64,000 nt of DNA from the NCBI GenBank assembly GCA_964016885.1, contig OZ024752.1:33976001-34040000 (forward strand), written 5' to 3'. Both the position numbers and the translations under genes were made by a program. Below, piece by piece: positions 27,901 to 62,820 of the stretch. Origin of the DNA: Eledone cirrhosa (Eukaryota). How positions within the stretch are numbered: position 1 is the stretch's first letter; every line of letters begins with the position of its first letter. Under the pieces are notes generated by a model that saw only the letters and a program-made list of their open reading frames with translations, had not been told where the DNA came from and did no database searches.

Positions 27901-27950
27901 GTGTTTAACCCTTTCATTACTGTATGTCTAATGAAAGACACAGTCTATGT
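19000..27950. repeat. Higher-order tandem duplication, period 4,511 bp
   Basis: Matching patterns at 19257/23768, 20831/25342, 22358/26869 and 22721/27232. Boundaries are approximate. Confidence 0.85.
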
Positions 27951-29451
27951 GTTTAATCCTTTCATTACTGTATGTCTAATGAAAGACACTGTCTATGTGT
28001 TTAACCCTTTCATTACTGTATGTCTAATGAAAGCCCTTTCATTACTGTATTTCTAATGAAAGACACTGTCTATGTGTTTACTCCTTTCATTACAGTATGT
28101 CTAATGAAAGACACTGTCTATGTGTTTAATCCTTTCATTGCTGTATGTCTAATGAAAGACACTGTCTATGTGTTTAACCCTTTCATTACTGTATGTCTAT
28201 TGAAATACACTGTCTATGTTGAATCCTTTCATTACTGTATGTCTAATGAAAGACACTGTTTATGTGTTTAATCCTTTCATTACTGTATGTCTAATAAAAG
28301 GGACTGTCTATGTGTTTAACCCTTTCATTACTGTATGTCTAATGAAAGACACTGTCTATGTGTTTAACCCTTTCATTACTGTATGTCTAATGAAAGACAC
28401 TGTCTATGTATTTAATCCTTTCATTACTGTATGTCTAATGAAAGACACTGTCTATGTGTTTAACCCTTTCATTACTGTATGTCTAATGAAAGACACTGAC
28501 TATGTCTTTAACCCTTTCATTACTGTATGTCTAATGAAAGACACTATCTGTGTTTAACCCTTTCATTACTGTATGTCTAATGAAAGACACTGTCTATGTA
28601 TTTAATCCTTTGATTACTGTATGTCTAATGAAAGACACTGTCTATGTCTTTAACCCTTTCATTACTGTATGTCTAATGAAAGACACTGTCTGTGTTTAAC
28701 CCTTTCATTACTGTATGTCTAATGAAAGACACAGTCTATGTGTTTAATCCTTTCATTACTGTATGTCTAATGAAAGACACAGTCTATGTGTTTAATCCTT
28801 TCATTACTGTATGTCTAATGAAAGACACAGTCTGTGTTTAACCCTTTCATTACTGTATGTCTAATGAAAGACACTGTTTATGTGTTTAATCCTTTCATTA
28901 CTGTATGTCTAATAAAAGGGACTGTCTATGTGTTTAACCCTTTCATTACTGTATGTCTAATGAAAGACACTGTCTATGTATTTAATCCTTTCATTACTGT
29001 ATGTCTAATGAAAGACACTGTCTATGTGTTTAACCCTTTCATTACTGTATGTCTAATGAAAGACACTCTCTATGTCTTTAACCCTTTCATTACTGTATGT
29101 CTAATGAAAGACACTGTCTGTGTTTAACCCTTTCATTACTGTATGTCTAATGAAAGACACTGTCTATGTGTTTAACCCTTTCATTACTGTATTTCTAATG
29201 AAAGACACTGTCTATGTGTTTAATCCTTTCATTACTGTATGTCTAAAGAAAGACACTGTCTATGTGTTTAACCCTTTCATTACTGTATATCTAATGAAAG
29301 ACACTGTCTATGTGTTTAACCCTTTCATTACTGTATGTCTAATGAAAGACACTGTCTATGTGTTTAACCCTTTCATTACTGTATGTCTAATGAAAGACAC
29401 TGTCTATGTGTTTTACCATTTCATTACTGTATGTCTAATAGGGCGGTGGAT

Positions 29452-29463
29452 TGGCAGTATCGG
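29452..29463 (+). promoter_or_regulatory. RNA Pol III type-2 internal promoter A box (SINE copy 1; same sequence in all 10 copies)
   Basis: TGGCAGTATCGG starts 12 nt from the element start and approximates TRGCNNARYGG. Confidence 0.7.
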
Positions 29464-29514
29464 TAGAGGGTCGGACGCCATGCTTTCCAGCATAGTTACG
29501 TCCCTTTACGATCT

Positions 29515-29526
29515 GAGTTCAAATCC
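29515..29526 (+). promoter_or_regulatory. RNA Pol III B box (SINE copy 1; same sequence in all 10 copies)
   Basis: GAGTTCAAATCC matches the GWTCRANNC / GTTCRAATCC consensus. Confidence 0.8.
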
Positions 29527-29805
29527 CGCCGAGGTTGACTTTGCCTTTCATCCTTACGGGGTCGATAAAATAAAGTACCAGTAATGTACTGGGTAATTGC
29601 TGGTCTTGTGCCAATAGTAGAAATAATTACTGTATGTCTAATGAAAGACACTGTCTATGTGTTTAACCCTTTCATTACTGTATATCTAATGAAAGACACT
29701 GTCTATGTGTTTAACCCTTTAATTACTGTATGTCTAATGAAAGACACTGTCTATGTGTTTAACCCTTTCATTACTGTATGTCTAATGAAAGACACTGTCT
29801 ATGTG

Positions 29806-29809
29806 TTTT
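29806..29809 (+). terminator. First TTTT run downstream of SINE copy 1 (candidate Pol III terminator) in variant monomer GTGTTTTACCAT
   Basis: The SINE body and the consensus monomer have at most T3 on the + strand, and this variant supplies T4. Function is inferred only. Confidence 0.3.
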
Positions 29810-32800
29810 ACCATTTCATTACTGTATGTCTAATGAAAGACACTGTCTATGTCTTTAACCCTTTATTTACTGTATTTGTAATGAAAGACACTGTCTATGT
29901 GTTTAATTCTTTCATTACTGTATGTCTATTGAAAGACACTGTCTATGTTTAATACTTTCATTATTGTATGTCTAATGAAAGACACTGTTTATGTGTTTAA
30001 TCCTTTCATTACTGTATGTCTAATGAAAGACACTGTCTATGTGTTTAACCCTTTCATTACTGTATGTCTAATAAAAGGGACTGTCTATGTGTTTAACCCT
30101 TTCATTACTGTAGGTCTAATGAAAGACACTGTCTATGTGTTTAACCCTTTCATTACTGTATGTCTAATGAAAGACACTGTCTATGTATTTAATCCTTTCA
30201 TTACTGTATGTCTAATGAAAGACACTGTCTATGTGTTTAACCCTTTCATTACTGTATGTCTAATGAAAGACACTGTCTATGTATTTAATCCTTTCATTAC
30301 TGTATGTCTAATGAAAGACACTGTCTATGTGTTTAACCCTTTCATTACTGTATGTCTAATGAAAGACACTGACTATGTCTTTAACCCTTTCATTACTGTA
30401 TGTCTAATGAAAGACACTATCTGTGTTTAACCCTTTCATTACTGTATGTCTAATGAAAGACACTGTCTATGTATTTAATCCTTTCATTACTGTATGTCTA
30501 ATGAAAGACACTGTCTATGTCTTTAACCCTTTCATTACTGTCTGTCTAATGAAAGACACTGTCTGTGTTTAACCCTTTCATTACTGTATGTCTAATGAAG
30601 GACACAGTCTATGTGTTTAATCCTTTCATTACTGTATGTCTAATGAAAGACACTGTCTATGTGTTTAACCCTTTCATTACTGTATGTCTATTGAAAGACA
30701 CTGTCTATGTTGAATCCTTTCATTACTGTATGTCTAATGAAAGACACTGTTTATGTGTTTAATCCTTTCATTACTGTATGTCTAATAAAAGGGACTGTCT
30801 ATGTGTTTAACCCTTTCATTACTGTATGTCTAATGAAAGACACTGTCTATGTATTTAATCCTTTCATTACTGTATGTCTAATGAAAGACACTGTCTATGT
30901 GTTTAACCCTTTCATTACTGTATGTCTAATGAAAGACACTCTCTATGTCTTTAACCCTTTCATTACTGTATGTCTAATGAAAGACACTGTCTGTGTTTAA
31001 CCCTTTCATTACTGTATGTCTAATGAAAGACACTGTCTATGTGTTTAACCCTTTCATTACTGTATTTCTAATGAAAGACACTGTCTATGTGTTTAACCCT
31101 TTCATTACTGTATGTCTAATGAAAGAAACTGTCTATGTCTTTAACCCTTTCATTACTGTATGTCTAATGAAAGACTGTCTATGTCTTTAACCCTTTCATT
31201 ACTGTATGTCTAATGAAAGACACTGTCTATGTCTTTAACCCTTTATTTACTGTATTTGTAATGAAAGACACTGTCTATGTGTTTAATCCTTTCATTACTG
31301 TATGTCTAATGAAAGACACTGTCTATGTGTTTAACCCTTTCATTACTGTATGTCTAATGAAAGAAACTGTCTATGTCTTTAACCCTTTCATTACTGTATG
31401 TCTAATGAAAGACACTGTCTATGTCTTTAACCCTTTCATTACTGTATGTCTAATGAAAGACACTGTCTATGTCTTTAACCCTTTATTTACTGTATTTGTA
31501 ATGAAAGACACTGTCTATGTGTTTAATTCTTTCATTACTGTATGTCTATTGAAAGACACTGTCTATGTTTAATACTTTCATTACTGTATGTCTAATGAAA
31601 GAAACTGTTTATGTGTTTAATCCTTTCATTACTGTATGTCTAATGAAAGACACTGTTTATGTGTTTATTCCTTTCATTACTGTATGTCTAATAAAAGGGA
31701 CTGTCTATGTGTTTAACTCTTTCATTACTGTAGGTCTAATGAAAGACACTGTCTATGTGTTTAACCCTTTCATTACTGTATGTCTAATGAAAGACACTGT
31801 CTATGTATTTAATCCTTTCATTACTGTATGTCTAATGAAAGACACTGTCTATGTGTTTAGCCCTTTCATTACTGTATGTCTAATGAAAGACACTGTCTAT
31901 GTATTTAATCCTTTCATTACTGTAAGTCTAATGAAAGACACTGTCTGTGTTTAACCCTTTCATTACTGTATGTCTAATGAAAGACACAGTCTATGTGTTT
32001 AATCCTTTCATTACTGTATGTCTAATGAAAGACACAGTCTATGTGTTTAATCCTTTCATTACTGTATGTCTAATGAAAGACACAGTCTGTGTTTAACCCT
32101 TTCATTACTGTATGTCTAATGAAAGACACTGTGTGTTTAACCCTTTCATTACTGTATGTCGAATGAAAGACACAGTCTATGTGTTTAATCCTTTCATTAC
32201 TGTATGTCTAATGAAAGACACTGTCTATGTGTTTAACCCTTTCATTACTGTATGTCTAATGAAAGACACAGTCACATGTGTTTAACCCTTTCATTACTGT
32301 ATGTCTAATGAAAGACACAGTCTATGTGTTTAACCCTTTCATTACTGTATGTCTAATGAAAGACACAGTGTATGTGTTTAATCCTTTCATTACTGTATGT
32401 CTAATGAAAGACACTGTCTATGTGTTTAACCCTTTCATTACTGTATGTCTAATGAAAGCCCTTTCATTACTGTATTTCTAATGAAAGACACTGTCTATGT
32501 GTTTACTCCTTTCATTACAGTATATCTAATGAAAGACACTGTCTATGTGTTTAATCCTTTCATTGCTGTATGTCTAATGAAAGACACTGTCTATGTGTTT
32601 AACCCTTTCATTACTGTATGTCTATTGAAAGACACTGTCTATGTTGAATCCTTTCATTACTGTATGTCTAATGAAAGACACTGTTTATGTGTTTAATCCT
32701 TTCATTACTGTATGTCTAATAAAAGGGACTGTCTATGTGTTTAACCCTTTCATTACTGTATTTCTAATGAAAGACACTGTCTATGTGTTTAATCCTTTCA

Positions 32801-35370
32801 TTACTGTATGTCTAAAGAAAGACACTGTCTATGTGTTTAACCCTTTCATTACTGTATATCTAATGAAAGACACTGTCTATGTGTTTAACCCTTTCATTAC
32901 TGTATGTCTAATGAAAGACACTGTCTATGTGTTTAACCCTTTCATTACTGTATGTCTAATGAAAGACACTGTCTATGTGTTTAACCCTTTCATTACTGTA
33001 GGTCTAATGAAAGACACTGTCTATGTGTTTAACCCTTTCATTACTGTATGTCTAATGAAAGACACTGTCTATGTATTTAATCCTTTCATTACTGTATGTC
33101 TAATGAAAGACACTGTCTATGTATTTAATCCTTTCATTACTGTATGTCTAATGAAAGACACTGTCTATGTTTAATACTTTCATTACTGTATGTCTAATGA
33201 AAGACACTGTTTATGTATTTAATCCTTTCATTACTGTAAGTCTAATGAAAGACACTGTCTGTGTTTAACCCTTTCATTACTGTATGTCTAATGAAAGACA
33301 CAGTCTATGTGTTTAATCCTTTCATTACTGTATGTCTAATGAAAGACACAGTCTATGTGTTTAATCCTTTCATTACTGTATGTCTAATGAAAGACACAGT
33401 CTGTGTTTAACCCTTTCATTACTGTATGTCTAATGAAAGACACTGTGTGTTTAACCCTTTCATTACTGTATGTCGAATGAAAGACACAGTCTATGTGTTT
33501 AATCCTTTCATTACTGTATGTCTAATGAAAGACACTGTCTATGTGTTTAACCCTTTCATTACTGTATGTCTAATGAAAGACACAGTCACATGTGTTTAAC
33601 CCTTTCATTACTGTATGTCTAATGAAAGACACAGTCTATGTGTTTAACCCTTTCATTACTGTATGTCTAATGAAAGACACAGTCTATGTGTTTAATCCTT
33701 TCATTACTGTATGTCTAATGAAAGACACTGTCTATGTGTTTAACCCTTTCATTACTGTATGTCTAATGAAAGCCCTTTCATTACTGTATTTCTAATGAAA
33801 GACACTGTCTATGTGTTTACTCCTTTCATTACAGTATATCTAATGAAAGACACTGTCTATGTGTTTAATCCTTTCATTGCTGTATGTCTAATGAAAGACA
33901 CTGTCTATGTATTTAATCCTTTCATTACTGTATGTCTAATGAAAGACACTGTCTATGTATTTAATCCTTTCATTACTGTATGTCTATTGAAAGACACTGT
34001 CTATGTTTAATACTTTCATTATTGTATGTCTAATGAAAGACACTGTTTATGTGTTTAATCCTTTCATTACTGTATGTCTAATGAAAGACACTGTCTATGT
34101 GTTTAACCCTTTCATTACTGTATGTCTAATAAAAGGGACTGTCTATGTGTTTAACCCTTTCATTACTGTAGGTCTAATGAAAGACACTGTCTATGTGTTT
34201 AACCCTTTCATTACTGTATGTCTAATGAAAGACACTGTCTATGTATTTAATCCTTTCATTACTGTATGTCTAATGAAAGACACTGTCTATGTGTTTAACC
34301 CTTTCATTACTGTATGTCTAATGAAAGACACTGTCTATGTATTTAATCCTTTCATTACTGTATGTCTAATGAAAGACACTGTCTATGTGTTTAACCCTTT
34401 CATTACTGTATGTCTAATGAAAGACACTGACTATGTCTTTAACCCTTTCATTACTGTATGTCTAATGAAAGACACTATCTGTGTTTAACCCTTTCATTAC
34501 TGTATGTCTAATGAAAGACACTGTCTATGTATTTAATCCTTTCATTACTGTATGTCTAATGAAAGACACTGTCTATGTCTTTAACCCTTTCATTACTGTC
34601 TGTCTAATGAAAGACACTGTCTGTGTTTAACCCTTTCATTACTGTATGTCTAATGAAGGACACAGTCTATGTGTTTAATCCTTTCATTACTGTATGTCTA
34701 ATGAAAGACACTGTCTATGTGTTTAACCCTTTCATTACTGTATGTCTATTGAAAGACACTGTCTATGTTGAATCCTTTCATTACTGTATGTCTAATGAAA
34801 GACACTGTTTATGTGTTTAATCCTTTCATTACTGTATGTCTAATAAAAGGGACTGTCTATGTGTTTAACCCTTTCATTACTGTATGTCTAATGAAAGACA
34901 CTGTCTATGTATTTAATCCTTTCATTACTGTATGTCTAATGAAAGACACTGTCTATGTGTTTAACCCTTTCATTACTGTATGTCTAATGAAAGACACTCT
35001 CTATGTCTTTAACCCTTTCATTACTGTATGTCTAATGAAAGACACTGTCTGTGTTTAACCCTTTCATTACTGTATGTCTAATGAAAGACACTGTCTATGT
35101 GTTTAACCCTTTCATTACTGTATTTCTAATGAAAGACACTGTCTATGTGTTTAATCCTTTCATTACTGTATGTCTAAAGAAAGACACTGTCTATGTGTTT
35201 AACCCTTTCATTACTGTATATCTAATGAAAGACACTGTCTATGTGTTTAACCCTTTCATTACTGTATGTCTAATGAAAGACACTGTCTATGTGTTTAACC
35301 CTTTCATTACTGTATGTCTAATGAAAGACACTGTCTATGTGTTTTACCATTTCATTACTGTATGTCTAAT

Positions 35371-35556
35371 AGGGCGGTGGATTGGCAGTATCGGTAGAGG
35401 GTCGGACGCCATGCTTTCCAGCATAGTTACGTCCCTTTACGATCTGAGTTCAAATCCCGCCGAGGTTGACTTTGCCTTTCATCCTTACGGGGTCGATAAA
35501 ATAAAGTACCAGTAATGTACTGGGTAATTGCTGGTCTTGTGCCAATAGTAGAAATA
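35371..35556 (+). mobile_element. SINE-like element copy 2
   Basis: Identical by eye to 29440-29625, with the same junctions. Confidence 0.88.
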
Positions 35557-38084
35557 ATTACTGTATGTCTAATGAAAGACACTGTCTATGTGTTTAACCC
35601 TTTCATTACTGTATATCTAATGAAAGACACTGTCTATGTGTTTAACCCTTTAATTACTGTATGTCTAATGAAAGACACTGTCTATGTGTTTAACCCTTTC
35701 ATTACTGTATGTCTAATGAAAGACACTGTCTATGTGTTTTACCATTTCATTACTGTATGTCTAATGAAAGACACTGTCTATGTCTTTAACCCTTTATTTA
35801 CTGTATTTGTAATGAAAGACACTGTCTATGTGTTTAATTCTTTCATTACTGTATGTCTATTGAAAGACACTGTCTATGTTTAATACTTTCATTATTGTAT
35901 GTCTAATGAAAGACACTGTTTATGTGTTTAATCCTTTCATTACTGTATGTCTAATGAAAGACACTGTCTATGTGTTTAACCCTTTCATTACTGTATGTCT
36001 AATAAAAGGGACTGTCTATGTGTTTAACCCTTTCATTACTGTAGGTCTAATGAAAGACACTGTCTATGTGTTTAACCCTTTCATTACTGTATGTCTAATG
36101 AAAGACACTGTCTATGTATTTAATCCTTTCATTACTGTATGTCTAATGAAAGACACTGTCTGTGTCTTTAACCCTTTCATTACTGTATGTCTAATGAAAG
36201 ACACTGTCTGTGTTTAACCCTTCCATTACTGTATGTCTAATGAAAGACACTGTCTGTGTGTTTAACCCTTTCATTACTGTATGTCTAATGAAAGACACAG
36301 TCTATGTGTTTAATCCTTTCATTACTGTATGTCTAATGAAAGACACAGTCTATGTGTTTAACCCTTTTATTACTGTATGTCTAATGAAAGACACAGTCTA
36401 TGTGTTTAACCCTTTCATTACTGTATGTCTAATGAAAGACACTGTCTATGTGTTTAACCCTTTCATTACTGTATGTCTAATGAAAGACACAGTCTATGTG
36501 TTTAACCCTTTCATTACTGTATGTCTAATGAAAGACACAGTCTATGTGTTTAATCCTTTCATTACTGTATGTCTAATGAAAGACACTGTCTATGTGTTTA
36601 ACCCTTTCATTACTGTATGTCTAATGAAAGACAGTCTATGTGTTTAACCCTTTCATTACTGTATGTCTAATGAAAGACACAGTCTATGTGTTTAATCCTT
36701 TCATTACTGTATGTCTAATGAAAGACACTGTCTATGTGTTTAACCCTTTCATTACTGTATGTCTAATGAAAGCCCCTTCATTACTGTATTTCTAATGAAA
36801 GACACTGTCTATGTGTTTAACCCTTTCATTACTGTATGTCTAATGAAAGACACTGTCTATGTATTTAATCCTTTCATTACTGTATGTCTAATGAAAGACA
36901 CTGTCTATGTCTTTAACCCTTTCATTACTGTATGTCTATTGAAAGACACTGTCTGTGTTTAACCCTTTCATTACTGTATGTCTAATGAAAGACATTGTCT
37001 GTGTGTTTAACCCTTTCATTACTGTATGTCTAATGAAAGACACTGTCTATGTGTTTAATCCTTTCATTACTGTATGTCTAATGATAGACACTGTTTATGT
37101 GTTTAATCCTTTCATTACTGTATGTCTAATGAAAGACACTGTTTATGTGTTTAATCCTTTCATTACTGTATGTCTAATAAAAGGGACTGTCTATGTGTTT
37201 AACCCTTTCATTACTGTATGTCTAATGAAAGACACTGTCTATGTGTTTAACCCTTTCATTACTGTATGTCTAATGAAAGACACTGTCTATGTATTTAATC
37301 CTTTCATTACTGTAAGTCTAATGAAAGACACTGTCTGTCTTTAACACTTTCATTACTCTATGTCTAATGAAAGACACAGTCTATGTGTTTAATCCTTTCA
37401 TTACTGTATGTCTAATGAAAGACACAGTCTATGTGTTTAATCCTTTCATTACTGTATGTCTAATGAAAGACACAGTCTGTGTTTAACCCTTTCATTACTG
37501 TATGTCTAATGAAAGACACTGTTTATGTGTTTAATCCTTTCATTACTGTATGTCTAATAAAAGGGACTGTCTATGTGTTTAACCCTTTCATTACTGTATG
37601 TCTAATGAAAGACACTGTCTATGTATTTAATCCTTTCATTACTGTATGTCTAATGAAAGACACTGTCTATGTGTTTAACCCTTTCATTACTGTATGTCTA
37701 ATGAAAGACACTCTCTATGTCTTTAACCCTTTCATTACTGTATGTCTAATGAAAGACACTGTCTGTGTTTAACCCTTTCATTACTGTATGTCTAATGAAA
37801 GACACTGTCTATGTGTTTAACCCTTTCATTACTGTATTTCTAATGAAAGACACTGTCTATGTGTTTAATCCTTTCATTACTGTATGTCTAAAGAAAGACA
37901 CTGTCTATGTGTTTAACCCTTTCATTACTGTATATCTAATGAAAGACACTGTCTATGTGTTTAACCCTTTCATTACTGTATGTCTAATGAAAGACACTGT
38001 CTATGTGTTTAACCCTTTCATTACTGTATGTCTAATGAAAGACACTGTCTATGTGTTTTACCATTTCATTACTGTATGTCTAAT

Positions 38085-38270
38085 AGGGCGGTGGATTGGC
38101 AGTATCGGTAGAGGGTCGGACGCCATGCTTTCCAGCATAGTTACGTCCCTTTACGATCTGAGTTCAAATCCCGCCGAGGTTGACTTTGCCTTTCATCCTT
38201 ACGGGGTCGATAAAATAAAGTACCAGTAATGTACTGGGTAATTGCTGGTCTTGTGCCAATAGTAGAAATA
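38085..38270 (+). mobile_element. SINE-like element copy 3
   Basis: Identical by eye to copy 1, with the same junctions. Confidence 0.88.
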
Positions 38271-40053
38271 ATTACTGTATGTCTAATGAAAGACACTGTC
38301 TATGTGTTTAACCCTTTCATTACTGTATATCTAATGAAAGACACTGTCTATGTGTTTAACCCTTTAATTACTGTATGTCTAATGAAAGACACTGTCTATG
38401 TGTTTAACCCTTTCATTACTGTATGTCTAATGAAAGACACTGTCTATGTGTTTTACCATTTCATTACTGTATGTCTAATGAAAGACACTGTCTATGTCTT
38501 TAACCCTTTATTTACTGTATTTGTAATGAAAGACACTGTCTATGTGTTTAATTCTTTCATTACTGTATGTCTATTGAAAGACACTGTCTATGTTTAATAC
38601 TTTCATTATTGTATGTCTAATGAAAGACACTGTTTATGTGTTTAATCCTTTCATTACTGTATGTCTAATGAAAGACACTGTCTATGTGTTTAACCCTTTC
38701 ATTACTGTATGTCTAATAAAAGGGACTGTCTATGTGTTTAACCCTTTCATTACTGTAGGTCTAATGTAAGACACTGTCTATGTGTTTAACCCTTTCATTA
38801 CTGTATGTCTAATGAAAGACACTGTCTATGTATTTAATCCTTTCATTACTGTATGTCTAATGAAAGACACTGTCTGTGTCTTTAACCCTTTCATTACTGT
38901 ATGTCTAATGAAAGACACTGTCTGTGTTTAACCCTTCCATTACTGTATGTCTAATGAAAGACACTGTCTGTGTGTTTAACCCTTTCATTACTGTATGTCT
39001 AATGAAAGACACAGTCTATGTGTTTAACCCTTTTATTACTGTATGTCTAATGAAAGACACAGTCTATGTGTTTAACCCTTTCATTACTGTATGTCTAATG
39101 AAAGACACTGTCTATGTGTTTAACCCTTTCATTACTGTATGTCTAATGAAAGACACAGTCTATGTGTTTAACCCTTTCATTACTGTATGTCTAATGAAAG
39201 ACACTGTCTATGTATTTAATCCTTTGATTACTGTATGTCTAATGAAAGACACTGTCTATGTCTTTAACCCTTTCATTACTGTATGTCTAATGAAAGACAC
39301 TGTCTGTGTTTAACCCTTTCATTACTGTATGTCTAATGAAGGACACAGTCTATGTGTTTAATCCTTTCATTACTGTATGTCTAATGAAAGACACTGTCTA
39401 TGTGTTTAACCCTTTCATTACTGTATGTCTATTGAAAGACACTGTCTATGTTGAATCCTTTCATTACTGTATGTCTAATGAAAGACACTGTTTATGTGTT
39501 TAATCCTTTCATTACTGTATGTCTAATAAAAGGGACTGTCTATGCGTTTAACCCTTTCATTACTGTATGTCTAATGAAAGACACTGTCTATGTATTTAAT
39601 CCTTTCATTACTGTATGTCTAATGAAAGACACTGTCTATGTGTTTAACCCTTTCATTACTGTATGTCTAATGAAAGACACTCTCTATGTCTTTAACCCTT
39701 TCATTACTGTATGTCTAATGAAAGACACTGTCTGTGTTTAACCCTTTCATTACTGTATGTCTAATGAAAGACACTGTCTATGTGTTTAACCCTTTCATTA
39801 CTGTATTTCTAATGAAAGACACTGTCTATGTGTTTAATCCTTTCATTACTGTATGTCTAAAGAAATACACTGTCTATGTGTTTAACCCTTTCATTACTGT
39901 ATATCTAATGAAAGACACTGTCTATGTGTTTAACCCTTTCATTACTGTATGTCTAATGAAAGACACTGTCTATGTGTTTAACCCTTTCATTACTGTATGT
40001 CTAATGAAAGACACTGTCTATGTGTTTTACCATTTCATTACTGTATGTCTAAT

Positions 40054-40239
40054 AGGGCGGTGGATTGGCAGTATCGGTAGATGGTCGGACGCCATGCTTT
40101 CCAGCATAGTTACGTCCCTTTACGATCTGAGTTCAAATCCCGCCGAGGTTGACTTTGCCTTTCATCCTTACGGGGTCGATAAAATAAAGTACCAGTAATG
40201 TACTGGGTAATTGCTGGTCTTGTGCCAATAGTAGAAATA
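40054..40239 (+). mobile_element. SINE-like element copy 4
   Basis: As copy 1 except G>T at 40082 (GTAGATGGTCGG). Confidence 0.88.
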
Positions 40240-42022: not shown

Positions 42023-42208
42023 AGGGCGGTGGATTGGCAGTATCGGTAGAGGGTCGGACGCCATGCTTTCCAGCATAGTTACGTCCCTTTACGATCTGAG
42101 TTCAAATCCCGCCGAGGTTGACTTTGCCTTTCATCCTTACGGGGTCGATAAAATAAAGTACCAGTAATGTACTGGGTAATTGCTGGTCTTGTGCCAATAG
42201 TAGAAATA
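42023..42208 (+). mobile_element. SINE-like element copy 5
   Basis: Identical by eye to copy 1, with the same junctions. Confidence 0.88.
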
Positions 42209-47900: not shown

Positions 47901-48116
47901 TCCTTTCATTACTGTATGTCTAAAGAAAGACACTGTCTATGTGTTTAACCCTTTCATTACTGTATATCTAATGAAAGACACTGTCTATGTGTTTAACCCT
48001 TTCATTACTGTATGTCTAATGAAAGACACTGTCTATGTGTTTAACCCTTTCATTACTGTATGTCTAATGAAAGACACTGTCTATGTGTTTTACCATTTCA
48101 TTACTGTATGTCTAAT

Positions 48117-48302
48117 AGGGCGGTGGATTGGCAGTATCGGTAGAGGGTCGGACGCCATGCTTTCCAGCATAGTTACGTCCCTTTACGATCTGAGTTCAAA
48201 TCCCGCCGAGGTTGACTTTGCCTTTCATCCTTACGGGGTCGATAAAATAAAGTACCAGTAATGTACTGGGTAATTGCTGGTCTTGTGCCAATAGTAGAAA
48301 TA
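48117..48302 (+). mobile_element. SINE-like element copy 7
   Basis: Identical by eye to copy 1, with the same junctions. Confidence 0.88.
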
Positions 48303-48749
48303 ATTACTGTATGTCTAATGAAAGACACTGTCTATGTGTTTAACCCTTTCATTACTGTATATCTAATGAAAGACACTGTCTATGTGTTTAACCCTTTAAT
48401 TACTGTATGTCTAATGAAAGACACTGTCTATGTGTTTAACCCTTTCATTACTGTATGTCTAATGAAAGACACTGTCTATGTGTTTTACCATTTCATTACT
48501 GTATGTCTAATGAAAGACACTGTCTATGTCTTTAACCCTTTATTTACTGTATTTGTAATGAAAGACACTGTCTATGTGTTTAATTCTTTCATTACTGTAT
48601 GTCTATTGAAAGACACTGTCTATGTTTAATACTTTCATTATTGTATGTCTAATGAAAGACACTGTTTATGTGTTTAATCCTTTCATTACTGTATGTCTAA
48701 TGAAAGACACTGTCTATGTGTTTAACCCTTTCATTACTGTATGTCTAAT

Positions 48750-51700: not shown

Positions 51701-54700
51701 TGTCTTTAATCCTTTCATTACTGTATGTCTAGTAAAAGGGACTGTCTATGTGTTTAACTCTTTCATTACTGTAGGTCTAATGAAAGACACTGTCTATGTG
51801 TTTAACCCTTTCATTACTGTATGTCTAATGAAAGACACTGTCTATGTATTTAATCCTTTCATTACTGTATGTCTAATGAAAGACACTGTCTGTGTTTAAC
51901 CCTTTCATTACTGTATGTCTAATGAAAGACACAGTGTATGTGTTTAATCCTTTCATTACTGTATGTCTAATGAAAGACACAGTCTATGTGTTTAATCCTT
52001 TCATTACTGTATGTCTAATGAAAGACACAGTCTGTGTTTAACCCTTTCATTACTGTATGTCTAATGAAAGACACTGTCTGTGTGTTTAACCCTTTCATTA
52101 CTGTATGTCGAATGAAAGACACAGTCTATGTGTTTAATCCTTTCATTACTGTATGTCTAATAAAAGACACTGTCTATGTGTTTAACCCTTTCATTACTGT
52201 AGGTCTAATGAAAGACACTGTCTATGTGTTTAACCCTTTCATTACTGTATGTCTAATGAAAGACACTGTCTATGTATTTAATCCTTTCATTACTGTATGT
52301 CTAATGAAAGACACTGTCTATGTATTTAATCCTTTCATTACTGTATGTCTAATGAAAGACACTGTCTATGTGTTTAACCCTTTCATTACTGTATGTCTAA
52401 TGAAAGACACTGACTATGTCTTTAACCCTTTCATTACTGTATGTCTAATGAAAGACACTATCTGTGTTTAACCCTTTCATTACTGTATGTCTAATGAAAG
52501 ACACTGTCTATGTATTTAATCCTTTCATTACTGTATGTCTAATGAAAGACACTGTCTATGTCTTTAACCCTTTCATTACTGTATGTCTAATGAAAGACAC
52601 TGTCTGTGTTTAACCCTTTCATTACTGTATGTCTAATGAAAGACACTGTCTATGTGTTTTACCATTTCATTACTGTATGTCTAATGAAAGACACTGTCTA
52701 TGTGTTTAACCCTTTCATTACTGTATGTCTAATGAAAGAAACTGTCTATGTCTTTAACCCTTTCATTACTGTATGTCTAATGAAAGACACTGTCTATGTC
52801 TTTAACCCTTTCATTACTGTATGTCTAATGAAAGACACTGTCTATGTCTTTAACCCTTTATTTACTGTATTTGTAATGAAAGACACTGTCTATGTGTTTA
52901 ATCCTTTCATTACTGTATGTCTAATGAAAGACACTGTCTATGTGTTTAACCCTTTCATTACTGTATGTCTAATGAAAGAAACTGTCTATGTCTTTAACCC
53001 TTTCATTACTGTATGTCTAATGAAAGACACTGTCTATGTCTTTAACCCTTTCATTACTGTATGTCTATTGAAAGACACATTCTATGTCTTTAACCCTTTA
53101 TTTACTGTATTTGTAATGAAAGACACTGTCTATGTGTTTAATTCTTTCATTACTGTATGTCTATTGAAAGACACTGTCTATGTTTAATACTTTCATTACT
53201 GTATGTCTATTGAAAGACACTGTTTATGTGTTTAATCCTTTCATTACTGTATGTCTAATGAAAGACACTGTTTATGTGTTTATTCCTTTCATTACTGTAT
53301 GTCTAATAAAAGGGACTGTCTATGTGTTTAACTCTTTCATTACTGTAGGTCTAATGAAAGACACTGTCTATGTGTTTAACCCTTTCATTACTGTATGTCT
53401 AATGAAAGACACTGTCTATGTATTTAATCCTTTCATTACTGTATGTCTAATGAAAGACACTGTCTATGTGTTTAGCCTTTTCATTACTGTATGTCTAATG
53501 AAAGACACTGTCTATGTATTTAATCCTTTCATTACTGTAAGTCTAATGAAAGACACTGTCTGTGTTTAACCCTTTCATTACTGTATGTCTAATGAAAGAC
53601 ACAGTCTATGTGTTTAATCCTTTCATTACTGTATGTCTAATGAAAGACACAGTCTATGTGTTTAATCCTTTCATTACTGTATGTCTAATGAAAGACACAG
53701 TCTGTGTTTAACCCTTTCATTACTGTATGTCTAATGAAAGACACTGTGTGTTTAACCCTTTCATTACTGTATGTCGAATGAAAGACACAGTCTATGTGTT
53801 TAATCCTTTCATTACTGTATGTCTAATGAAAGACACTGTCTATGTGTTTAACCCTTTCATTACTGTATGTCTAATGAAAGACACAGTCACATGTGTTTAA
53901 CCCTTTCATTACTGTATGTCTAATGAAAGACACAGTCTATGTGTTTAACCCTTTCATTACTGTATGTCTAATGAAAGACACAGTCTATGTGTTTAATCCT
54001 TTCATTACTGTACGTCTAATGAAAGACACTGTCTATGTGTTTAACCCTTTCATTACTGTATGTCTAATGAAAGCCCTTTCATTACTGTATTTCTAATGAA
54101 AGACACTGTCTATGTGTTTACTCCTTTCATTACAGTATGTTTAATGAAAGACACTGTCTATGTGTTTAATCCTTTCATTGCTGTATGTCTAATGAAAGAC
54201 ACTGTCTATGTGTTTAACCCTTTCATTACTGTATGTCTATTGAAAGACACTGTCTATGTTGAATCCTTTCATTACTGTATGTCTAATGAAAGACACTGTT
54301 TATGTGTTTAATCCTTTCATTACTGTATGTCTAATAAAAGGGACTGTCTATGTGTTTAACCCTTTCATTACTGTATGTCTAATGAAAGACACTGTCTATG
54401 TGTTTAACCCTTTCATTACTGTATGTCTAATGAAAGACACTGTCTATGTATTTAATCCTTTCATTACTGTATGTCTAATGAAAGACACTGTCTATGTGTT
54501 TAACCCTTTCATTACTGTATGTCTAATGAAAGACACTGACTATGTCTTTAACCCTTTCATTACTGTATGTCTAATGAAAGACACTATCTGTGTTTAACCC
54601 TTTCATTACTGTATGTCTAATGAAAGACACTGTCTATGTATTTAATCCTTTCATTACTGTATGTCTAATGAAAGACACTGTCTATGTCTTTAACCCTTTC

Positions 54701-55570
54701 ATTACTGTATGTCTAATGAAAGACACTGTCTGTGTTTAACCCTTTCATTACTGTATGTCTAATGAAGGACACAGTCTATGTGTTTAATCCTTTCATTACT
54801 GTATGTCTAATGAAAGACACTGTCTATGTGTTTAACCCTTTCATTACTGTATGTCTATTGAAAGACACTGTCTATGTTGAATCCTTTCATTACTGTATGT
54901 CTAATGAAAGACACTGTTTATGTGTTTAATCCTTTCATTACTGTATGTCTAATAAAAGGGACTGTCTATGTGTTTAACCCTTTCATTACTGTATGTCTAA
55001 TGAAAGACACTGTCTGTGTGTTTAACCCTTTCATTACTGTATGTCTAATGAAAGACACAGTCTATGTATTTAATCCTTTCATTACTGTATGTCTAATGAA
55101 AGACACTGTCTATGTCTTTAATCCTTTCATTACTGTATGTCTAGTAAAAGGGACTGTCTATGTGTTTAACTCTTTCATTACTGTAGGTCTAATGAAAGAC
55201 ACTGTCTATGTGTTTAACCCTTTCATTACTGTATGTCTAATGAAAGACACTGTCTATGTATTTAATCCTTTCATTACTGTATGTCTAATGAAAGACACTG
55301 TCTGTGTTTAACCCTTTCATTACTGTATGTCTAATGAAAGACACAGTCTATGTGTTTAATCCTTTCATTACTGTATGTCTAATGAAAGACACAGTCTATG
55401 TGTTTAATCCTTTCATTACTGTATGTCTAATGAAAGACACAGTCTGTGTTTAACCCTTTCATTACTGTATGTCTAATGAAAGACACTGTCTGTGTGTTTA
55501 ACCCTTTCATTACTGTATGTCGAATGAAAGACACAGTCTATGTGTTTAATCCTTTCATTACTGTATGTCT
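48750..55570. repeat. Higher-order tandem duplication, period 3,412 bp, SINE-free
   Basis: Matching patterns at 49194/52606, 49768/53180, 50481/53893, 51462/54874 and 52034/55446. Private variants GACACATTC, TAGCCTTTT and GTACGTCT each occur twice. Confidence 0.85.
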
Positions 55571-58500
55571 AATAAAAGACACAGTCTATGTGTTTAACCG
55601 TTTCATTACTGTATGTCTAATGAAAGACACAGTCTATGTGTTTAACCCTTTCATTACTGTATGTCTTATGAAAGACACTGTCTATGTTGAATCCTTTCAT
55701 TACTGTATATCTAATGAAAGACACTGTTTATGTGTTTAATCCTTTCATTACTGTATGTCTAATGAAAGACACTGTCTATGTCTTTAACCCTTTCATTACT
55801 GTATGTCTAATAAAAGGGACTGTCTGTGTTTAACCCTTTCATTACTGTATGTCTAATGAAAGACACTGTCTATGTGTTTAACCCTTTCATTACTGTATGT
55901 CTAATGAAAGACACTGTCTATGTCTTTAACCCTTTCATTACTGTATGTCTAATGAAAGACACTGTCTGTGTTTAACCCTTTCATTACTGTATGTCTAATG
56001 AAAGACACTGTCTATGTATTTAATCCTTTCATTACTGTATGTCTAATGAAAGACACTGTCTATGTCTTTAACCCTTTCATTACTGTATGTCTAATGAAAG
56101 ACACTGTCTGTGTTTAACCCTTTCATTACTGTATGTCTAATGAAAGACACAGTCTATGTGTTTAATCCTTTCATTACTGTATGTCTAATGAAAGACACTG
56201 TCTATGTGTTTAACCCTTTCATTACTGTATGTCTATTGAAAGACACTGTCTATGTTGAATCCATTCATTACTGTATGTCTAATGAAAGACACTGTTTATG
56301 TGTTTAATCCTTTCATTACTGTATGTCTAATAAAAGGGACTGTCTATGTGTTTAACCCTTTCATTACTGTATGTCTAATGAAAGACACTGTCTATGTATT
56401 TAATCCTTTCATTACTGTATGTCTAATAAAAGGGACTGTCTATGTGTTTAACCCTTTCATTACTGTATGTCTAATGAAAGACACTGTCTATGTCTTTAAC
56501 CCTTTCATTACTGTATGTCTAATGAAAGACACTGTCTGTGTGTTTAATCATTTCATTAGTGTATGTCTAATGAAAGACACTGTCTATGTCTTTAACCCTT
56601 TCATTACTGTATGTCTAATGAAAGACACTGTCTGTGTTAAACCCTTTCATTACTGTATGTCTAATGAAAGACACTGTCTATGTGTTTAACCCTTTCATTA
56701 CTGTATTTCTAATGAAAGACACTGTCTATGTGTTTAATCCTTTCATTACTGTATGTCTAATGAAAGACACTGTCTATGTGTTTAACCCTTTCATTACTGT
56801 ATATCTAATGAAAGACACTGTCTATGTGTTTAACCCTTTCATTATTGTATGTCTAATGAAAGACACTGTCTATGTGTTTAACCCTTTCATTACTGTATGT
56901 CTAATGAAAGACACTGTCTATGTGTTTTACCATTTCATTACTGTATGTCTAATGAAAGACACTGTCTATGTGTTTAACCCTTTCATTACTGTATGTCTAA
57001 TGAAAGAAACTGTCTATGTCTTTAACCCTTTCATTACTGTATGTCTAATGAAAGACACTGTCTATGTCTTTAACCCTTTCATTACTGTATGTCTAATGAA
57101 AGACACTGTCTATGTCTTTAACCCTTTATTTACTGTATTTGTAATGAAAGACACTGTCTATGTGTTTAATCCTTTCATTACTGTATGTCTAATGAAAGAC
57201 ACTGTCTATGTGTTTAACCCTTTCATTACTGTATGTCTAATGAAAGAAACTGTCTATGTCTTTAACCCTTTCATTACTGTATGTCTAATGAAAGACACTG
57301 TCTATGTCTTTAACCCTTTCATTACTGTATGTCTAATGAAAGACACTGTCTATGTCTTTAACCCTTTATTTACTGTATTTGTAATGAAAGACACTGTCTA
57401 TGTGTTTAATTCTTTCATTACTGTATGTCTATTGAAAGACACTGTCTATGTTTAATACTTTCATTACTGTATGTCTAATGAAAGAAACTGTTTATGTGTT
57501 TAATCCTTTCATTACTGTATGTCTAATGAAAGACACTGTTTATGTGTTTATTCCTTTCATTACTGTATGTCTAATAAAAGGGACTGTCTATGTGTTTAAC
57601 TCTTTCATTACTGTAGGTCTAATGAAAGACACTGTCTATGTGTTTAACCCTTTCATTACTGTATGTCTAATGAAAGACACTGTCTATGTATTTAATCCTT
57701 TCATTACTGTATGTCTAATGAAAGACACTGTCTATGTGTTTAGCCCTTTCATTACTGTATGTCTAATGAAAGACACTGTCTATGTATTTAATCCTTTCAT
57801 TACTGTAAGTCTAATGAAAGACACTGTCTGTGTTTAACCCTTTCATTACTGTATGTCTAATGAAAGACACAGTCTATGTGTTTAATCCTTTCATTACTGT
57901 ATGTCTAATGAAAGACACAGTCTATGTGTTTAATCCTTTCATTACTGTATGTCTAATGAAAGACACAGTCTGTGTTTAACCCTTTCATTACTGTATGTCT
58001 AATGAAAGACACTGTGTGTTTAACCCTTTCATTACTGTATGTCGAATGAAAGACACAGTCTATGTGTTTAATCCTTTCATTACTGTATGTCTAATGAAAG
58101 ACACTGTCTATGTGTTTAACCCTTTCATTACTGTATGTCTAATGAAAGACACAGTCTATGTGTTTAACCCTTTCATTACTGTATGTCTAATGAAAGACAC
58201 AGTCTATGTGTTTAATCCTTTCATTACTGTATGTCTAATGAAAGACACTGTCTATGTGTTTAACCCTTTCATTACTGTATGTCTAATGAAAGCCCTTTCA
58301 TTACTGTATTTCTAATGAAAGACACTGTCTATGTGTTTACTCCTTTCATTACAGTATGTCTAATGAAAGACACTGTCTATGTGGTTAATCCTTTCATTGC
58401 TGTATGTCTAATGAAAGACACTGTCTATGTGTTTAACCCTTTCATTACTGTATGTCTATTGAAAGACACTGTCTATGTTGAATCCTTTCATTACTGTATG

Positions 58501-59364
58501 TCTAATGAAAGACACTGTTTATGTGTTTAATCCTTTCATTACTGTATGTCTAATAAAAGGGACTGTCTATGTGTTTAACCCTTTCATTACTGTATGTCTA
58601 ATGAAAGACACTGTCTATGTGTTTAACCCTTTCATTACTGTATGTCTAATGAAAGACACTGTCTATGTATTTAATCCTTTCATTACTGTATGTCTAATGA
58701 AAGACACTGTCTATGTGTTTAACCCTTTCATTACTGTATGTCTAATGAAAGACACTGACTATGTCTTTAACCCTTTCATTACTGTATGTCTAATGAAAGA
58801 CACTATCTGTGTTTAACCCTTTCATTACTGTATGTCTAATGAAAGACACTGTCTATGTATTTAATCCTTTGATTAGTGTATGTCTAATGAAAGACACTGT
58901 CTATGTCTTTAACCCTTTCATTACTGTATGTCTAATGAAAGACACTGTCTGTGTTTAACCCTTTCATTACTGTATGTCTAATGAAGGACACAGTCTATGT
59001 GTTTAATCCTTTCATTACTGTATGTCTAATGAAAGACACTGTCTATGTGTTTAACCCTTTCATTACTGTATGTCTATTGAAAGACACTGTCTATGTTGCA
59101 TCCTTTCATTACTGTATGTCTAATGAAAGACACTGTTTATGTGTTTAATCCTTTCATTACTGTATGTCTAATAAAAGGGACTGTCTATACGTTTAACCCT
59201 TTCATTACTGTATGTCTAATGAAAGACACTGTCTATGTATTTAATCCTTTCATTACTGTATGTCTAATGAAAGACACTGTCTATGTGTTTAACCCTTTCA
59301 TTACTGTATGTCTAATGAAAGACACTGTCTATGTGTTTTACCATTTCATTACTGTATGTCTAAT

Positions 59365-59550
59365 AGGGCGTTGGATTGGCAGTATCGGTAGAGGGTCGGA
59401 CGCCATGCTTTCCAGCATAGTTACGTCCCTTTACGATCTGAGTTCAAATCCCGCCGAGGTTGACTTTGCCTTTCATCCTTACGGGGTCGATAAAATAAAG
59501 TACCAGTAATGTACTGGGTAATTGCTGGTCTTGTGCCAATAGTAGAAATA
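59365..59550 (+). mobile_element. SINE-like element copy 8
   Basis: As copy 1 except G>T at 59371 (GGGCGTTGG), shared with copy 9. Confidence 0.88.
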
Positions 59551-61047
59551 ATTACTGTATGTCTAATGAAAGACACTGTCTATGTGTTTAACCCTTTGAT
59601 TACTGTATATCTAATGAAAGACACTGTCTATGTGTTTAACCCTTTAATTACTGTATGTCTAATGAAAGACACTGTCTATGTGTTTAACCCTTTCATTACT
59701 GTATGTCTAATAAAAGGGACTGTCTATGTGTTTAACCCTTTCATTACTGTAGGTCTAATGAAAGACACTGTCTATGTGTTTAACCCTTTCATTACTGTAT
59801 GTCTAATGAAAGACACTGTCTATGTATTTAATCCTTTCATTACTGTATGTCTAATGAAAGACACTGTCTATGTGTTTAACCCTTTCATTACTGTATGTCT
59901 AATGAAAGACACTGTCTATGTATTTAATCCTTTCATTACTGTATGTCTAATGAAAGACACTGTCTATGTGTTTAACCCTTTCATTACTGTATGTCTAATG
60001 AAAGACACTGACTATGTCTTTAACCCTTTCATTACTGTATGTCTAATGAAAGACACTATCTGTGTTTAACCCTTTCATTACTGTATGTCTAATGAAAGAC
60101 ACTGTCTATGTATTTAATCCTTTCATTACTGTATGTCTAATGAAAGACACTGTCTATGTCTTTAACCCTTTCATTACTGTCTGTCTAATGAAAGACACTG
60201 TCTATGTATTTAATCCTTTGATTACTGTATGTCTAATGAAAGACACTGTCTATGTCTTTAACCCTTTCATTACTGTATGTCTAATGAAAGACACTGTCTG
60301 TGTTTAACCCTTTCATTACTGTATGTCTAATGAAGGACACAGTCTATGTGTTTAATCCTTTCATTACTGTATGTCTAATGAAAGACACTGTCTATGTGTT
60401 TAACCCTTTCATTACTGTATGTCTATTGAAAGACACTGTCTATGTTGAATCCTTTCATTACTGTATGTCTAATGAAAGACACTGTTTATGTGTTTAATCC
60501 TTTCATTACTGTATGTCTAATAAAAGGGACTGTCTATGCGTTTAACCATTTCATTACTGTATGTCTAATGAAAGACACTGTCTATGTATTTAATCCTTTC
60601 ATTACTGTATGTCTAATGAAAGACACTGTCTATGTGTTTAACCCTTTCATTACTGTATGTCTAATGAAAGACACTCTCTATGTCTTTAACCCTTTCATTA
60701 CTTTATGTCTAATGAAAGACACTGTCTGTGTTTAACCCTTTCATTACTGTATGTCTAATGAAAGACACTGTCTATGTGTTTAACCCTTTCATTACTGTAT
60801 TTCTAATGAAAGACACTGTCTATGTGTTTAATCCTTTCATTACTGTATGTCTAAAGAAATACACTGTCTATGTGTTTAACCCTTTCATTACTGTATATCT
60901 AATGAAAGACACTGTCTATGTGTTTAACCCTTTCATTACTGTATGTCTAATGAAAGACACTGTCTATGTGTTTAACCCTTTCATTACTGTATGTCTAATG
61001 AAAGACACTGTCTATGTGTTTTACCATTTCATTACTGTATGTCTAAT

Positions 61048-61233
61048 AGGGCGTTGGATTGGCAGTATCGGTAGAGGGTCGGACGCCATGCTTTCCAGCA
61101 TAGTTACGTCCCTTTACGATCTGAGTTCAAATCCCGCCGAGGTTGACTTTGCCTTTCATCCTTACGGGGTCGATAAAATAAAGTACCAGTAATGTACTGG
61201 GTAATTGCTGGTCTTGTGCCAATAGTAGAAATA
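61048..61233 (+). mobile_element. SINE-like element copy 9
   Basis: As copy 1 except G>T at 61054, shared with copy 8. Confidence 0.88.
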
Positions 61234-62634
61234 ATTACTGTATGTCTAATGAAAGACACTGTCTATGTGTTTAACCCTTTGATTACTGTATATCTAATGA
61301 AAGACACTGTCTATGTGTTTAAACCTTTAATTACTGTATGTCTAATGAAAGACAGTGTCTATGTGTTTAACCCTTTCATTACTGTATGTCTAATAAAAGG
61401 GACTGTCTATGTGTTTAACCCTTTCATTACTGTAGGTCTAATGAAAGACACTGTCTATGTGTTTAACCCTTTCATTACTGTATGTCTAATGAAAGACACT
61501 GTCTATGTATTTAATCCTTTCATTACTGTATGTCTAATGAAAGACACTGTCTATGTGTTTAACCCTTTCATTACTGTATGTCTAATGAAAGACACTGTCT
61601 ATGTATTTAATCCTTTCATTACTGTATGTCTAATGAAAGACACTGTCTATGTGTTTAACCCTTTCATTACTGTATGTCTAATGAAAGACACTGACTATGT
61701 CTTTAACCCTTTCATTACTGTATGTCTAATGAAAGACACTATCTGTGTTTAACCCTTTCATTACTGTATGTCTAATGAAAGACACTGTCTATGTATTTAA
61801 TCCTTTCATTACTGTATGTCTAATGAAAGACACTGTCTATGTCTTTAACCCTTTCATTACTGTATGTCTAATGAAAGACACTGTCTGTGTTTAACCCTTT
61901 CATTACTGTATGTCTAATGAAGGACACAGTCTATGTGTTTAATCCTTTCATTACTGTATGTGTAATGAAAGACACTGTCTATGTGTTTAACCCTTTCATT
62001 ACTGTATGTCTATTGAAAGACACTGTCTATGTTGAATCCTTTCATTACTGTATGTCTAATGAAAGACACTGTTTATGTGTTTAATCCTTTCATTACTGTA
62101 TGTCTAATAAAAGGGACTGTCTATGTGTTTAACCCTTTCATTACTGTATGTCTAATGAAAGACACTGTCTATGTATTTAATCCTTTCATTACTGTATGTC
62201 TAATGAATGACACTGTCTATGTGTTTAACCCTTTCATTACTGTATGTCTAATGAAAGACACTCTCTATGTCTTTAACCCTTTCATTACTGTATGTCTAAT
62301 GAAAGACACTGTCTGTGTTTAACCCTTTCATTACTGTATGTCTAATGAAAGACACTGTCTATGTGTTTAACCCTTTCATTACTGTATTTCTAATGAAAGA
62401 CACTGTCTATGTGTTTAATCCTTTCATTACTGTATGTCTAAAGAAAGACACTGTCTATGTGTTTAACCCTTTCATTACTGTATATCTAATGAAAGACACT
62501 GTCTATGTGTTTAACCCTTTCATTACTGTATGTCTAATGAAAGACACTGTCTATGTGTTTAACCCTTTCATTACTGTATGTCTAATGAAAGACACTGTCT
62601 ATGTGTTTTACCATTTCATTACTGTATGTCTAAT

Positions 62635-62820
62635 AGGGCGGTGGATTGGCAGTATCGGTAGAGGGTCGGACGCCATGCTTTCCAGCATAGTTACGTCCCT
62701 TTACGATCTGAGTTCAAATCCCGCCGAGGTTGACTTTGCCTTTCATCCTTACGGGGTCGATAAAATAAAGTACCAGTAATGTACTGGGTAATTGCTGGTC
62801 TTGTGCCAATAGTAGAAATA
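62635..62820 (+). mobile_element. SINE-like element copy 10
   Basis: Identical by eye to copy 1, with the same junctions. Confidence 0.88.

What the first reader, a model, noticed from the sequence alone, without database searches (positions are those of the whole stretch)
29440..62820. A single SINE insertion captured and amplified ten-fold as part of the satellite
Seen: 10 copies of a 186-bp element share orientation, both junctions, the 17-bp TSD and the rare host monomer (GTGTTTTACCAT). Only two variants were seen: G>T in copy 4 and a G>T shared by copies 8 and 9. Spacings are 5931, 2714, 1969, 1969, 2714, 3380, 11248, 1683 and 1587 bp. Inference: one retrotransposition event was then propagated by array duplication without reverse transcriptase, creating a composite SINE-satellite higher-order unit. 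It places intact-looking Pol III promoters roughly every 2 kb in presumed heterochromatin. TFIIIC-bound B boxes act as chromatin barriers in other systems.
Basis: partly seen in the sequence, partly recalled or inferred. Interest (0 to 1): 0.72.

Follow-up and report, generated by a model that had tools for sequence, protein, structure and literature searches.

The report
One SINE copied along a satellite
A short jumping element sits in 16 nearly identical copies inside one 379-kb tandem repeat, likely because it inserted once and was carried along as a passenger when the repeat duplicated itself, a process already described in human and plant genomes.

Summary
Confirmed and extended. The ten 186-bp copies, junctions, 17-bp TSD, variants and spacings are exact. 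Six more lie just beyond the window: 16 in 47.7 kb. All 16 carry T165, found in 1 of 116 dispersed copies with the same tail, and the junction occurs nowhere else: one insertion, then DNA-level duplication. The rest of the reading fails. There is no fixed higher-order unit: spacings run 539-11,248 bp and shared flanks 47-5,260 bp. Amplification is not special: sequence multiplicity is the same inside and outside the SINE block, and nine point-variant monomers wholly outside it reach 16 or more copies. The host is a single-locus 378.6-kb array, built from the first 48 bp of a MITE-like repeat, starting 5 kb upstream of a twisted gastrulation start codon. A barrier role is untested. Precedents: Alu insertions expanded with human Yq12 repeats; ATHILA copies in Arabidopsis centromeres. 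The scan noted a like case in another genome (e1-9989035). Useful as a dated lineage tracer of array turnover; otherwise ordinary.

The parts
1..64000 (+). 48-bp satellite (monomer with an internal 9-bp inverted repeat), part of one 378.6-kb array at G000:C12:33827044-34205640
   Evidence: TRF; array ends and 7,902 monomers; all 4,979 genome matches of a 27-mer lie in it
29423..29439 (+). 5' copy of the 17-bp target-site duplication (copy 1; same in all copies)
29440..29625 (+). SINE copy 1 (186 bp, founder allele)
   Evidence: dispersed relatives 95-99% identical
29452..29463 (+). A-box-like motif TGGCAGTATCGG; departs from my strict (recalled) A-box pattern but matches the young dispersed copies
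   Evidence: strict pattern missed; positions 13-24 matched in 17 of 20 top dispersed hits
29517..29525 (+). B box GTTCAAATC
   Evidence: matches the recalled GWTCRANNC pattern
29604..29604 (+). T165, private diagnostic base of the array lineage
   Evidence: 16 of 16 array copies; 1 of 116 dispersed same-tail copies
29626..29642 (+). 3' copy of the 17-bp TSD
29806..29809 (+). first T4 run downstream (predicted Pol III stop, about 370 nt from the SINE start; same offset in 10 of 16 copies)
   Evidence: function inferred
35371..35556 (+). SINE copy 2
38085..38270 (+). SINE copy 3
40054..40239 (+). SINE copy 4 (G29T)
42023..42208 (+). SINE copy 5 (block 5-6 duplicates block 2-3: 5 mismatches in 2,714 bp)
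44737..44922 (+). SINE copy 6
48117..48302 (+). SINE copy 7
59365..59550 (+). SINE copy 8 (G7T)
   Evidence: shares 630 bp of right flank with copy 9
61048..61233 (+). SINE copy 9 (G7T)
62635..62820 (+). SINE copy 10; copies 11-16 follow outside the window at window-equivalent 66444, 66983, 68856, 71950, 73823 and 76917

Best explanation
Sixteen near-identical copies of a 186-bp tRNA-type SINE share one insertion site in a 48-bp tandem array, likely because one young copy inserted once and was then carried along as a likely neutral passenger by the array's own local duplications. Steps: (1) Shown: the element belongs to a dispersed, recently active subfamily, and it has a 17-bp TSD starting ATTA like most of its dispersed sisters. 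Inferred: target-primed reverse transcription by an unidentified LINE; both strand nicks would fall at 5'-TAAT/GAAAG-3', the two arms of the monomer's inverted repeat. (2) Shown: all 16 copies carry T165 and lie in one flank haplotype. Inferred: T165 arose in the founder before the first duplication. (3) Shown: blocks of tens of bases to about 5 kb were duplicated in a nested, overlapping way with shifting breakpoints. Inferred: unequal sister-chromatid exchange, break-induced replication or gene conversion; these cannot be told apart here. (4) Shown: SINE-free parts of the array were amplified to the same degree, so no selection or drive on the SINE is needed.
For: T165 is in 16 of 16 array copies and 1 of 116 dispersed copies with the same 27-nt tail; that one is a diverged fragment with G98A. 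The chance for 16 independent insertions is about 1e-31, or 2e-24 with the looser 53-of-2,027 rate. The right junction occurs 16 times in the assembly, all here; the opposite-orientation junction 0 times. The SINE is the only insert over 110 bp in 378.6 kb. The +-100-bp host haplotype occurs 13 times, always with the SINE. Variants track flanks: copies 14 and 16 share T116C and 5,182 bp of left flank; copies 8 and 9 share G7T and 630 bp of right flank. Blocks 12-14 and 14-16 differ at 2 of 4,967 bp. Neutrality: mean exact k-mer multiplicity inside vs outside the SINE block is 9.6/9.4 (200-mers), 3.7/3.8 (400) and 1.9/2.1 (800). The site's +-100-bp family has 10 members against an array mean of 10.0, and 35.5% of monomer positions have 10 or more. 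Nine point-variant monomers wholly outside the block have 16 or more copies within 100 kb. 18 of 25 TSD calls among 60 dispersed copies start ATTA. In run X1 a zero-mismatch 60-nt junction contig has depth 98, against 5.7, 7.6 and 9.4 for the three long unique contigs listed near Tsg: roughly 10-17 copies.
Against: Only 13 of 385 locally confined monomer variants reach 16 copies, so the SINE lineage is in the successful tail. Several co-located variants rose with it, so hitchhiking of that block on the SINE is not formally excluded. Its density (0.36 per kb) is above the median of 81 local variants (0.21; 15% are denser), though typical for variants with 12-25 copies (0.19-0.71). The junction contig has 32 and 28 letters on its two sides, under the tool's 31-letter bridging rule. 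Contig depth is a rough measure, and X1 may be the assembly's own sample. No second individual was shown to carry the cluster. The recombination mechanism and the partner LINE were not identified.
Confidence: 0.86

Rival explanations
1. The copies were kept or favoured because TFIIIC/Pol III bound to their B boxes acts as a chromatin barrier or makes a SINE-satellite RNA, or because transcription of the SINE locally stimulates duplication.
For: The B box is intact in all 16 copies, and the head equals that of a recently mobile subfamily. 10 of 16 copies have a T4 stop about 370 nt from the start. The array abuts Tsg. The lineage is among the 13 of 385 local variants with 16 or more copies.
Against: No excess amplification over SINE-free blocks. 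The copies are too young (0.39% pairwise) for conservation to mean anything, and copy 11 has T13G at the first base of the A-box-like motif. The cluster lies 183-231 kb from the Tsg start codon, in the middle of the array and not at its border. No chromatin or expression data were available.
Confidence: 0.07
2. The 16 copies are largely an assembly artefact: one or two real copies expanded in a hard repeat.
For: Repeat arrays are error-prone, and some blocks are near-identical (2 mismatches in 4,967 bp).
Against: Copies carry four distinct post-insertion variants and mosaic, non-identical flanks. The junction contig depth is about 10-17 times single-copy depth in X1.
Confidence: 0.04
3. Site-specific retrotransposition: the LINE machinery repeatedly targets this position of the monomer.
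For: The site fits the family's C|ATTA preference and is dyad-symmetric in the monomer hairpin.
Against: T165 is private to all 16; they share one orientation and one flank haplotype; no other insertion occurs in 7,902 monomers; 0 of 60 dispersed copies examined lie in this satellite.
Confidence: 0.01

Closest known systems
Alu insertions in human Yq12 DYZ1/DYZ2 repeat units (Hallast et al., bioRxiv 10.1101/2022.12.01.518658; passages read)
   Same: A SINE checked for TPRT hallmarks inserts into a tandem repeat unit, and the insertion-bearing units then expand and contract by slippage, NAHR or conversion. The insertion marks related units.
   Different: Here the monomer is 48 bp, not 2.4-3.5 kb; the duplicated blocks have no fixed size; the array is one 379-kb locus beside a gene, in what is likely an octopod genome (label from recall and earlier scan notes, not tested).
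ATHILA copies duplicated after integration in Arabidopsis CEN180 arrays (Naish et al., bioRxiv 10.1101/2021.05.30.446350; passages read)
   Same: [quoted passage not shown]
   Different: LTR elements, five duplication cases, in centromeres; here a SINE with 16 copies in an array found on one chromosome only.
Human composite arrays such as 5SRNA_Comp with AluY (Hoyt et al., bioRxiv 10.1101/2021.07.12.451456; passages read)
   Same: An Alu insertion in one unit preceded expansion of the array.
   Different: There the Alu is part of a fixed unit throughout the array; here the SINE marks 12.6% of the array with no fixed unit.
SINE-derived satellites (sSat1-3) of squamates (PMC10702118; abstract and outline only)
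   Same: SINE sequence in tandem context.
   Different: There the monomer itself is a piece of SINE; here an intact SINE rides in a satellite derived from another repeat.

Membership tests
tRNA-derived SINE | Short, non-coding, dispersed in many copies | tested here: met
   186 bp; 1,974 + 53 dispersed exact matches to a 30-nt tail motif; 390 candidates, 40 scored, at 95-100% identity
tRNA-derived SINE | Internal Pol III B box | tested here: met
   GTTCAAATC at element positions 78-86 (consensus recalled)
tRNA-derived SINE | Internal A box and tRNA ancestry | tested here: inconclusive
   A-box-like motif misses the strict pattern; no tRNA by ARAGORN; no tRNA hit in Rfam at E<=1
tRNA-derived SINE | TPRT hallmarks: variable-length TSD, simple-repeat tail, 5' truncations | tested here: met
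   17-bp TSD here; 25 of 60 dispersed copies gave TSD calls of 10-24 bp and many are 5'-truncated. Some calls overrun into the element or lie in AT microsatellites.
tRNA-derived SINE | 3' end shared with a partner LINE | not tested
   LINE fragments lie in both flanks, but their 3' ends were not compared
MetaSINE superfamily (PMC4824008) | 66-bp Meta domain after the tRNA head | not testable with these tools
   The resemblance is recalled only. The consensus is in a figure; section 9 was read; the supplement search gave no hit and one of two files was not searched
Higher-order repeat (alpha-satellite sense) | Fixed multi-monomer unit repeated in tandem | tested here: not met
   Spacings 539-11,248 bp; shared flanks 71-5,182 bp (left) and 47-5,260 bp (right)
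Higher-order repeat (alpha-satellite sense) | Multi-monomer blocks more alike than neighbouring monomers | tested here: met
   Shared flank blocks differ by 0.21%; monomers differ by 3.6% from the commonest one
Site-specific non-LTR retroelement | Independent insertions at the same target position | tested here: not met
   One allele, one orientation, one haplotype
tDNA/B-box chromatin barrier | TFIIIC occupancy and barrier activity | not testable with these tools
   No ChIP or accessibility data
Centromeric satellite | Present on all or most chromosomes / CENP-A bound | tested here: not met
   All 4,979 exact 27-mer matches lie in one array on C12; CENP-A binding not testable

The most novel reading that the evidence does not exclude
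The 16 copies form an active Pol III/TFIIIC island inside a 379-kb array that abuts, or fills the 5'-UTR intron of, twisted gastrulation. They would make a ~370-nt SINE-satellite RNA or a chromatin boundary whose dose changes with array turnover and tunes this BMP regulator.
Probability: 0.06. Interest if true: 0.6.

Novelty: new member of a known kind. Interest (0 to 1): 0.22.

Why it matters
As biology it is ordinary: retroelements copied after insertion into tandem arrays are in print for human Yq12 and Arabidopsis centromeres. Its value is as a clean natural tracer. A datable insertion shows that a 48-kb stretch (12.6% of the array) was populated with 16 descendants of one site while the copies diverged by only 0.2-0.4%. 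It also gives breakpoints and block sizes for tandem-array turnover in a cephalopod-type genome. If the copies proved to bind TFIIIC or to affect Tsg, it would show how neutral array dynamics can set the dose of a regulatory element.

Tried and rejected
Rfam: only a chance snR11 hit, E 0.22. ARAGORN: no tRNA. Expression: no RNA holder listed. Run X4 (kind not on record) has a contig that stops at the Tsg splice donor like a spliced read and a 78-nt satellite contig; neither is used as evidence, and no junction contig was among those listed for it. RAD-seq run X24 (another sample) and run X5 (another organism) gave no listed junction piece: uninformative, not absence. Array copies as source genes: 20 of the 53 dispersed T165 places were fetched; none lies in the satellite and all lack the array's T185 tail (in 4 of 20 the best alignment fell on a neighbouring copy). 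The single T165+T185 copy elsewhere is a diverged fragment. No SINE-plus-satellite transduction was found. So there is no sign of daughters. CpG decay as a methylation signal: 0 of 4 post-insertion changes are CpG transitions against 6 of 43 in young dispersed copies; too few. A T-stretch 10 nt upstream of TSDs (RTE-type signature, PMC13295347, passages): not clear above the AT-rich background in 24 copies. Right-hand neighbour gene: 60 of 207 candidate ORFs in 200 kb were scanned and gave only LINE domains; short exons would be missed. The shuffled-phase control fell out of register and was not used. Literature: seven searches, listings only, showed no paper on this array or on a cephalopod case; (six terms together) found 0 papers. 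PMC4795812 was not held. Supplements of the bioRxiv preprints could not be seen and may hold copy numbers for the Yq12 Alu expansions.
Full report
Observation. The whole window is a 48-bp satellite. Ten copies of a 186-bp element lie at the stated places, with the stated spacings, junctions, 17-bp TSD and two variants. The window is G000:C12:33976001-34040000 of a 3.0-Gb assembly. Six more copies follow to the right, making 16 in 47,663 bp. The right junction occurs exactly 16 times in the assembly.

The element. It is a dispersed repeat: a 30-nt tail motif has 1,974 exact matches with C and 69 with T at position 165. The closest dispersed copies differ from the array copy only at T165C. It has a B box at 78-86 and an A-box-like motif that misses my strict, recalled pattern. 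ARAGORN and Rfam see no tRNA. Of 60 dispersed copies examined (20 top hits and 40 of the 115), 25 gave TSD calls of 10-24 bp, 18 of them starting ATTA, with C just before in 12 of 24. So the C|ATTA site and 17-bp TSD here are typical of the family. Thirty young copies average 0.78% from their consensus, a figure biased low by choosing top hits. I read it as a young tRNA-type SINE. The octopod label and a MetaSINE-like core are recalled or taken from earlier scan notes and were not tested.

One insertion. All 16 array copies have T165. With the same 27-nt tail, 115 dispersed copies have C and one has T, and that one is a diverged fragment. Independent insertion would have a chance of about 1e-31. 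No junction exists in the opposite orientation, although the target is dyad-symmetric: the TSD spans the loop of the monomer's 9-bp inverted repeat, so both nicks would be at TAAT/GAAAG (inference from TPRT geometry). The +-100-bp host haplotype occurs 13 times, always with the SINE. Later variants follow the flanks: T116C in copies 14 and 16, which share 5,182 bp on the left; G7T in copies 8 and 9, which share 630 bp on the right.

No fixed higher-order unit. Written as monomer symbols, the array shows layered local duplications of changing size. Spacings run 539-11,248 bp, mean 3.2 kb. Blocks 2-3 and 5-6 are true duplicates (5 mismatches in 2,714 bp), as are 12-14 and 14-16 (2 in 4,967), while the two 1,969-bp spacings are unrelated in content (254 mismatches). 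Shared flanks range from 47 to 5,260 bp, and left and right flanks often point to different relatives. One left-flank haplotype at C12:34054789 has no SINE behind it, which looks like a crossover that left the SINE out (inference).

Passenger, not driver. The array spans C12:33827044-34205640 (378.6 kb, 7,902 monomers), and the SINE is its only insert. Mean exact k-mer multiplicity is the same inside and outside the SINE block at 200, 400 and 800 bp. The site's +-100-bp family has 10 members against an array mean of 10.0. Nine point-variant monomers wholly outside the block have 16 or more copies within 100 kb. Against this, only 13 of 385 local variants reach 16 copies, and the SINE's density is in the upper 15% of 81 variants. 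It is a successful lineage but not an outlier, and hitchhiking is not formally excluded.

Reads. In run X1 a 60-nt contig matches the T165 junction without mismatch at depth 98. Three long unique contigs near Tsg have depths 5.7, 7.6 and 9.4 in the same run; the other four X1 records listed there are short repeats. The ratio, about 10-17, fits the assembly and not one or two copies. Caveats: only 28 letters lie on the satellite side (the tool asks for 31), depth is per contig, and X1 may be the assembly's own sample.

Context. All 4,979 exact matches of a monomer 27-mer in the genome fall in this one array, so it is not a genome-wide centromeric satellite. Its last monomer runs on into the body of a dispersed ~250-bp repeat (1,732 candidates; the 39 scored copies elsewhere are 74-84% identical). 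That repeat begins TTAACCCTT, and ends in the complementary motif in 2 of 4 dispersed copies printed and in two flank copies. A second copy 38 kb to the left has its own four-unit 48-bp tandem. So the monomer likely arose from the first 48 bp of a MITE-like element. The left edge is 5.0 kb upstream of a twisted gastrulation start codon (Pfam Tsg_N and Tsg). A strong splice acceptor just before the ATG implies an upstream 5'-UTR exon, so the array may be intronic; this is unresolved. Heterochromatin is not shown.

Function. The promoter boxes equal those of a recently mobile subfamily, and 10 of 16 copies have a first T4 about 370 nt from the start, so a SINE-satellite Pol III transcript is possible. 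Nothing here shows binding, transcription or barrier activity, and no daughter insertions were found.

Known cases. Alu insertions in human Yq12 repeat units were followed by lineage-specific expansions (10.1101/2022.12.01.518658, passages). Five ATHILA duplications in Arabidopsis centromeres appear to be post-integration copies (10.1101/2021.05.30.446350, passages). An AluY insertion preceded expansion of the human 5S composite array (10.1101/2021.07.12.451456, passages). The scan noted a similar LTR case in another genome. My searches listed no paper on this locus.

Verdict. Real, well resolved and ordinary: a new member of a known kind. Best explanation 0.86; interest 0.22.

Noticed in passing
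G000:C12:34205630-34205880 (L109:5630-5880) and array start C12:33827044: The 48-bp monomer is the first 48 bp of a dispersed ~250-bp repeat with TTAACCCTT...AAGGGTTAA ends. The array's last monomer continues into that element's body, so the 379-kb array likely grew in place from one MITE-like copy.
   Followed up: partly
G000:C12:33788759-33788951 (L094): An independent four-copy 48-bp tandem at the same end of another copy of the MITE-like repeat, opposite strand: the same seed expanded twice within 40 kb.
   Followed up: partly
L097:5816-6056 (-) and L095:1095-1661 (-): Twisted gastrulation gene (Pfam Tsg_N, Tsg); start codon 5.0 kb from the array edge, with a splice acceptor 18 nt before the ATG, so the array may lie in its 5'-UTR intron.
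   Followed up: partly
window 29423-29439 / 29626-29642: The TSD is symmetric about the monomer's 9-bp inverted repeat, so both strand nicks would be at the same sequence, TAAT/GAAAG.
   Followed up: partly
L097:8547-9999 (-); L170-L171 (-); L162; L173: LINE reverse-transcriptase and endonuclease reading frames in both flanks, including two tandem LINE copies in L170-L171.
   Followed up: no
G000:C12:34219273-34227978 and neighbours: The right flank holds many other tandem arrays (52-bp x 169, 82-bp x 31, 58-bp x 20, 135-bp x 8).
   Followed up: no
L038, L040, L113, L128 and other dispersed loci: Young SINE copies often sit directly against the head of another SINE copy.
   Followed up: no
L144 (C3:260677188) and L159 (C5:12501373): Two dispersed SINE copies on different chromosomes share the same right flank and divergence, likely a duplicated segment.
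   Followed up: no
whole array: SINE-family fragments are dense in the flanks (33 hits in about 85 kb), but only one insertion event lies in the 379-kb array, which fits a young or fast-turning array.
   Followed up: partly
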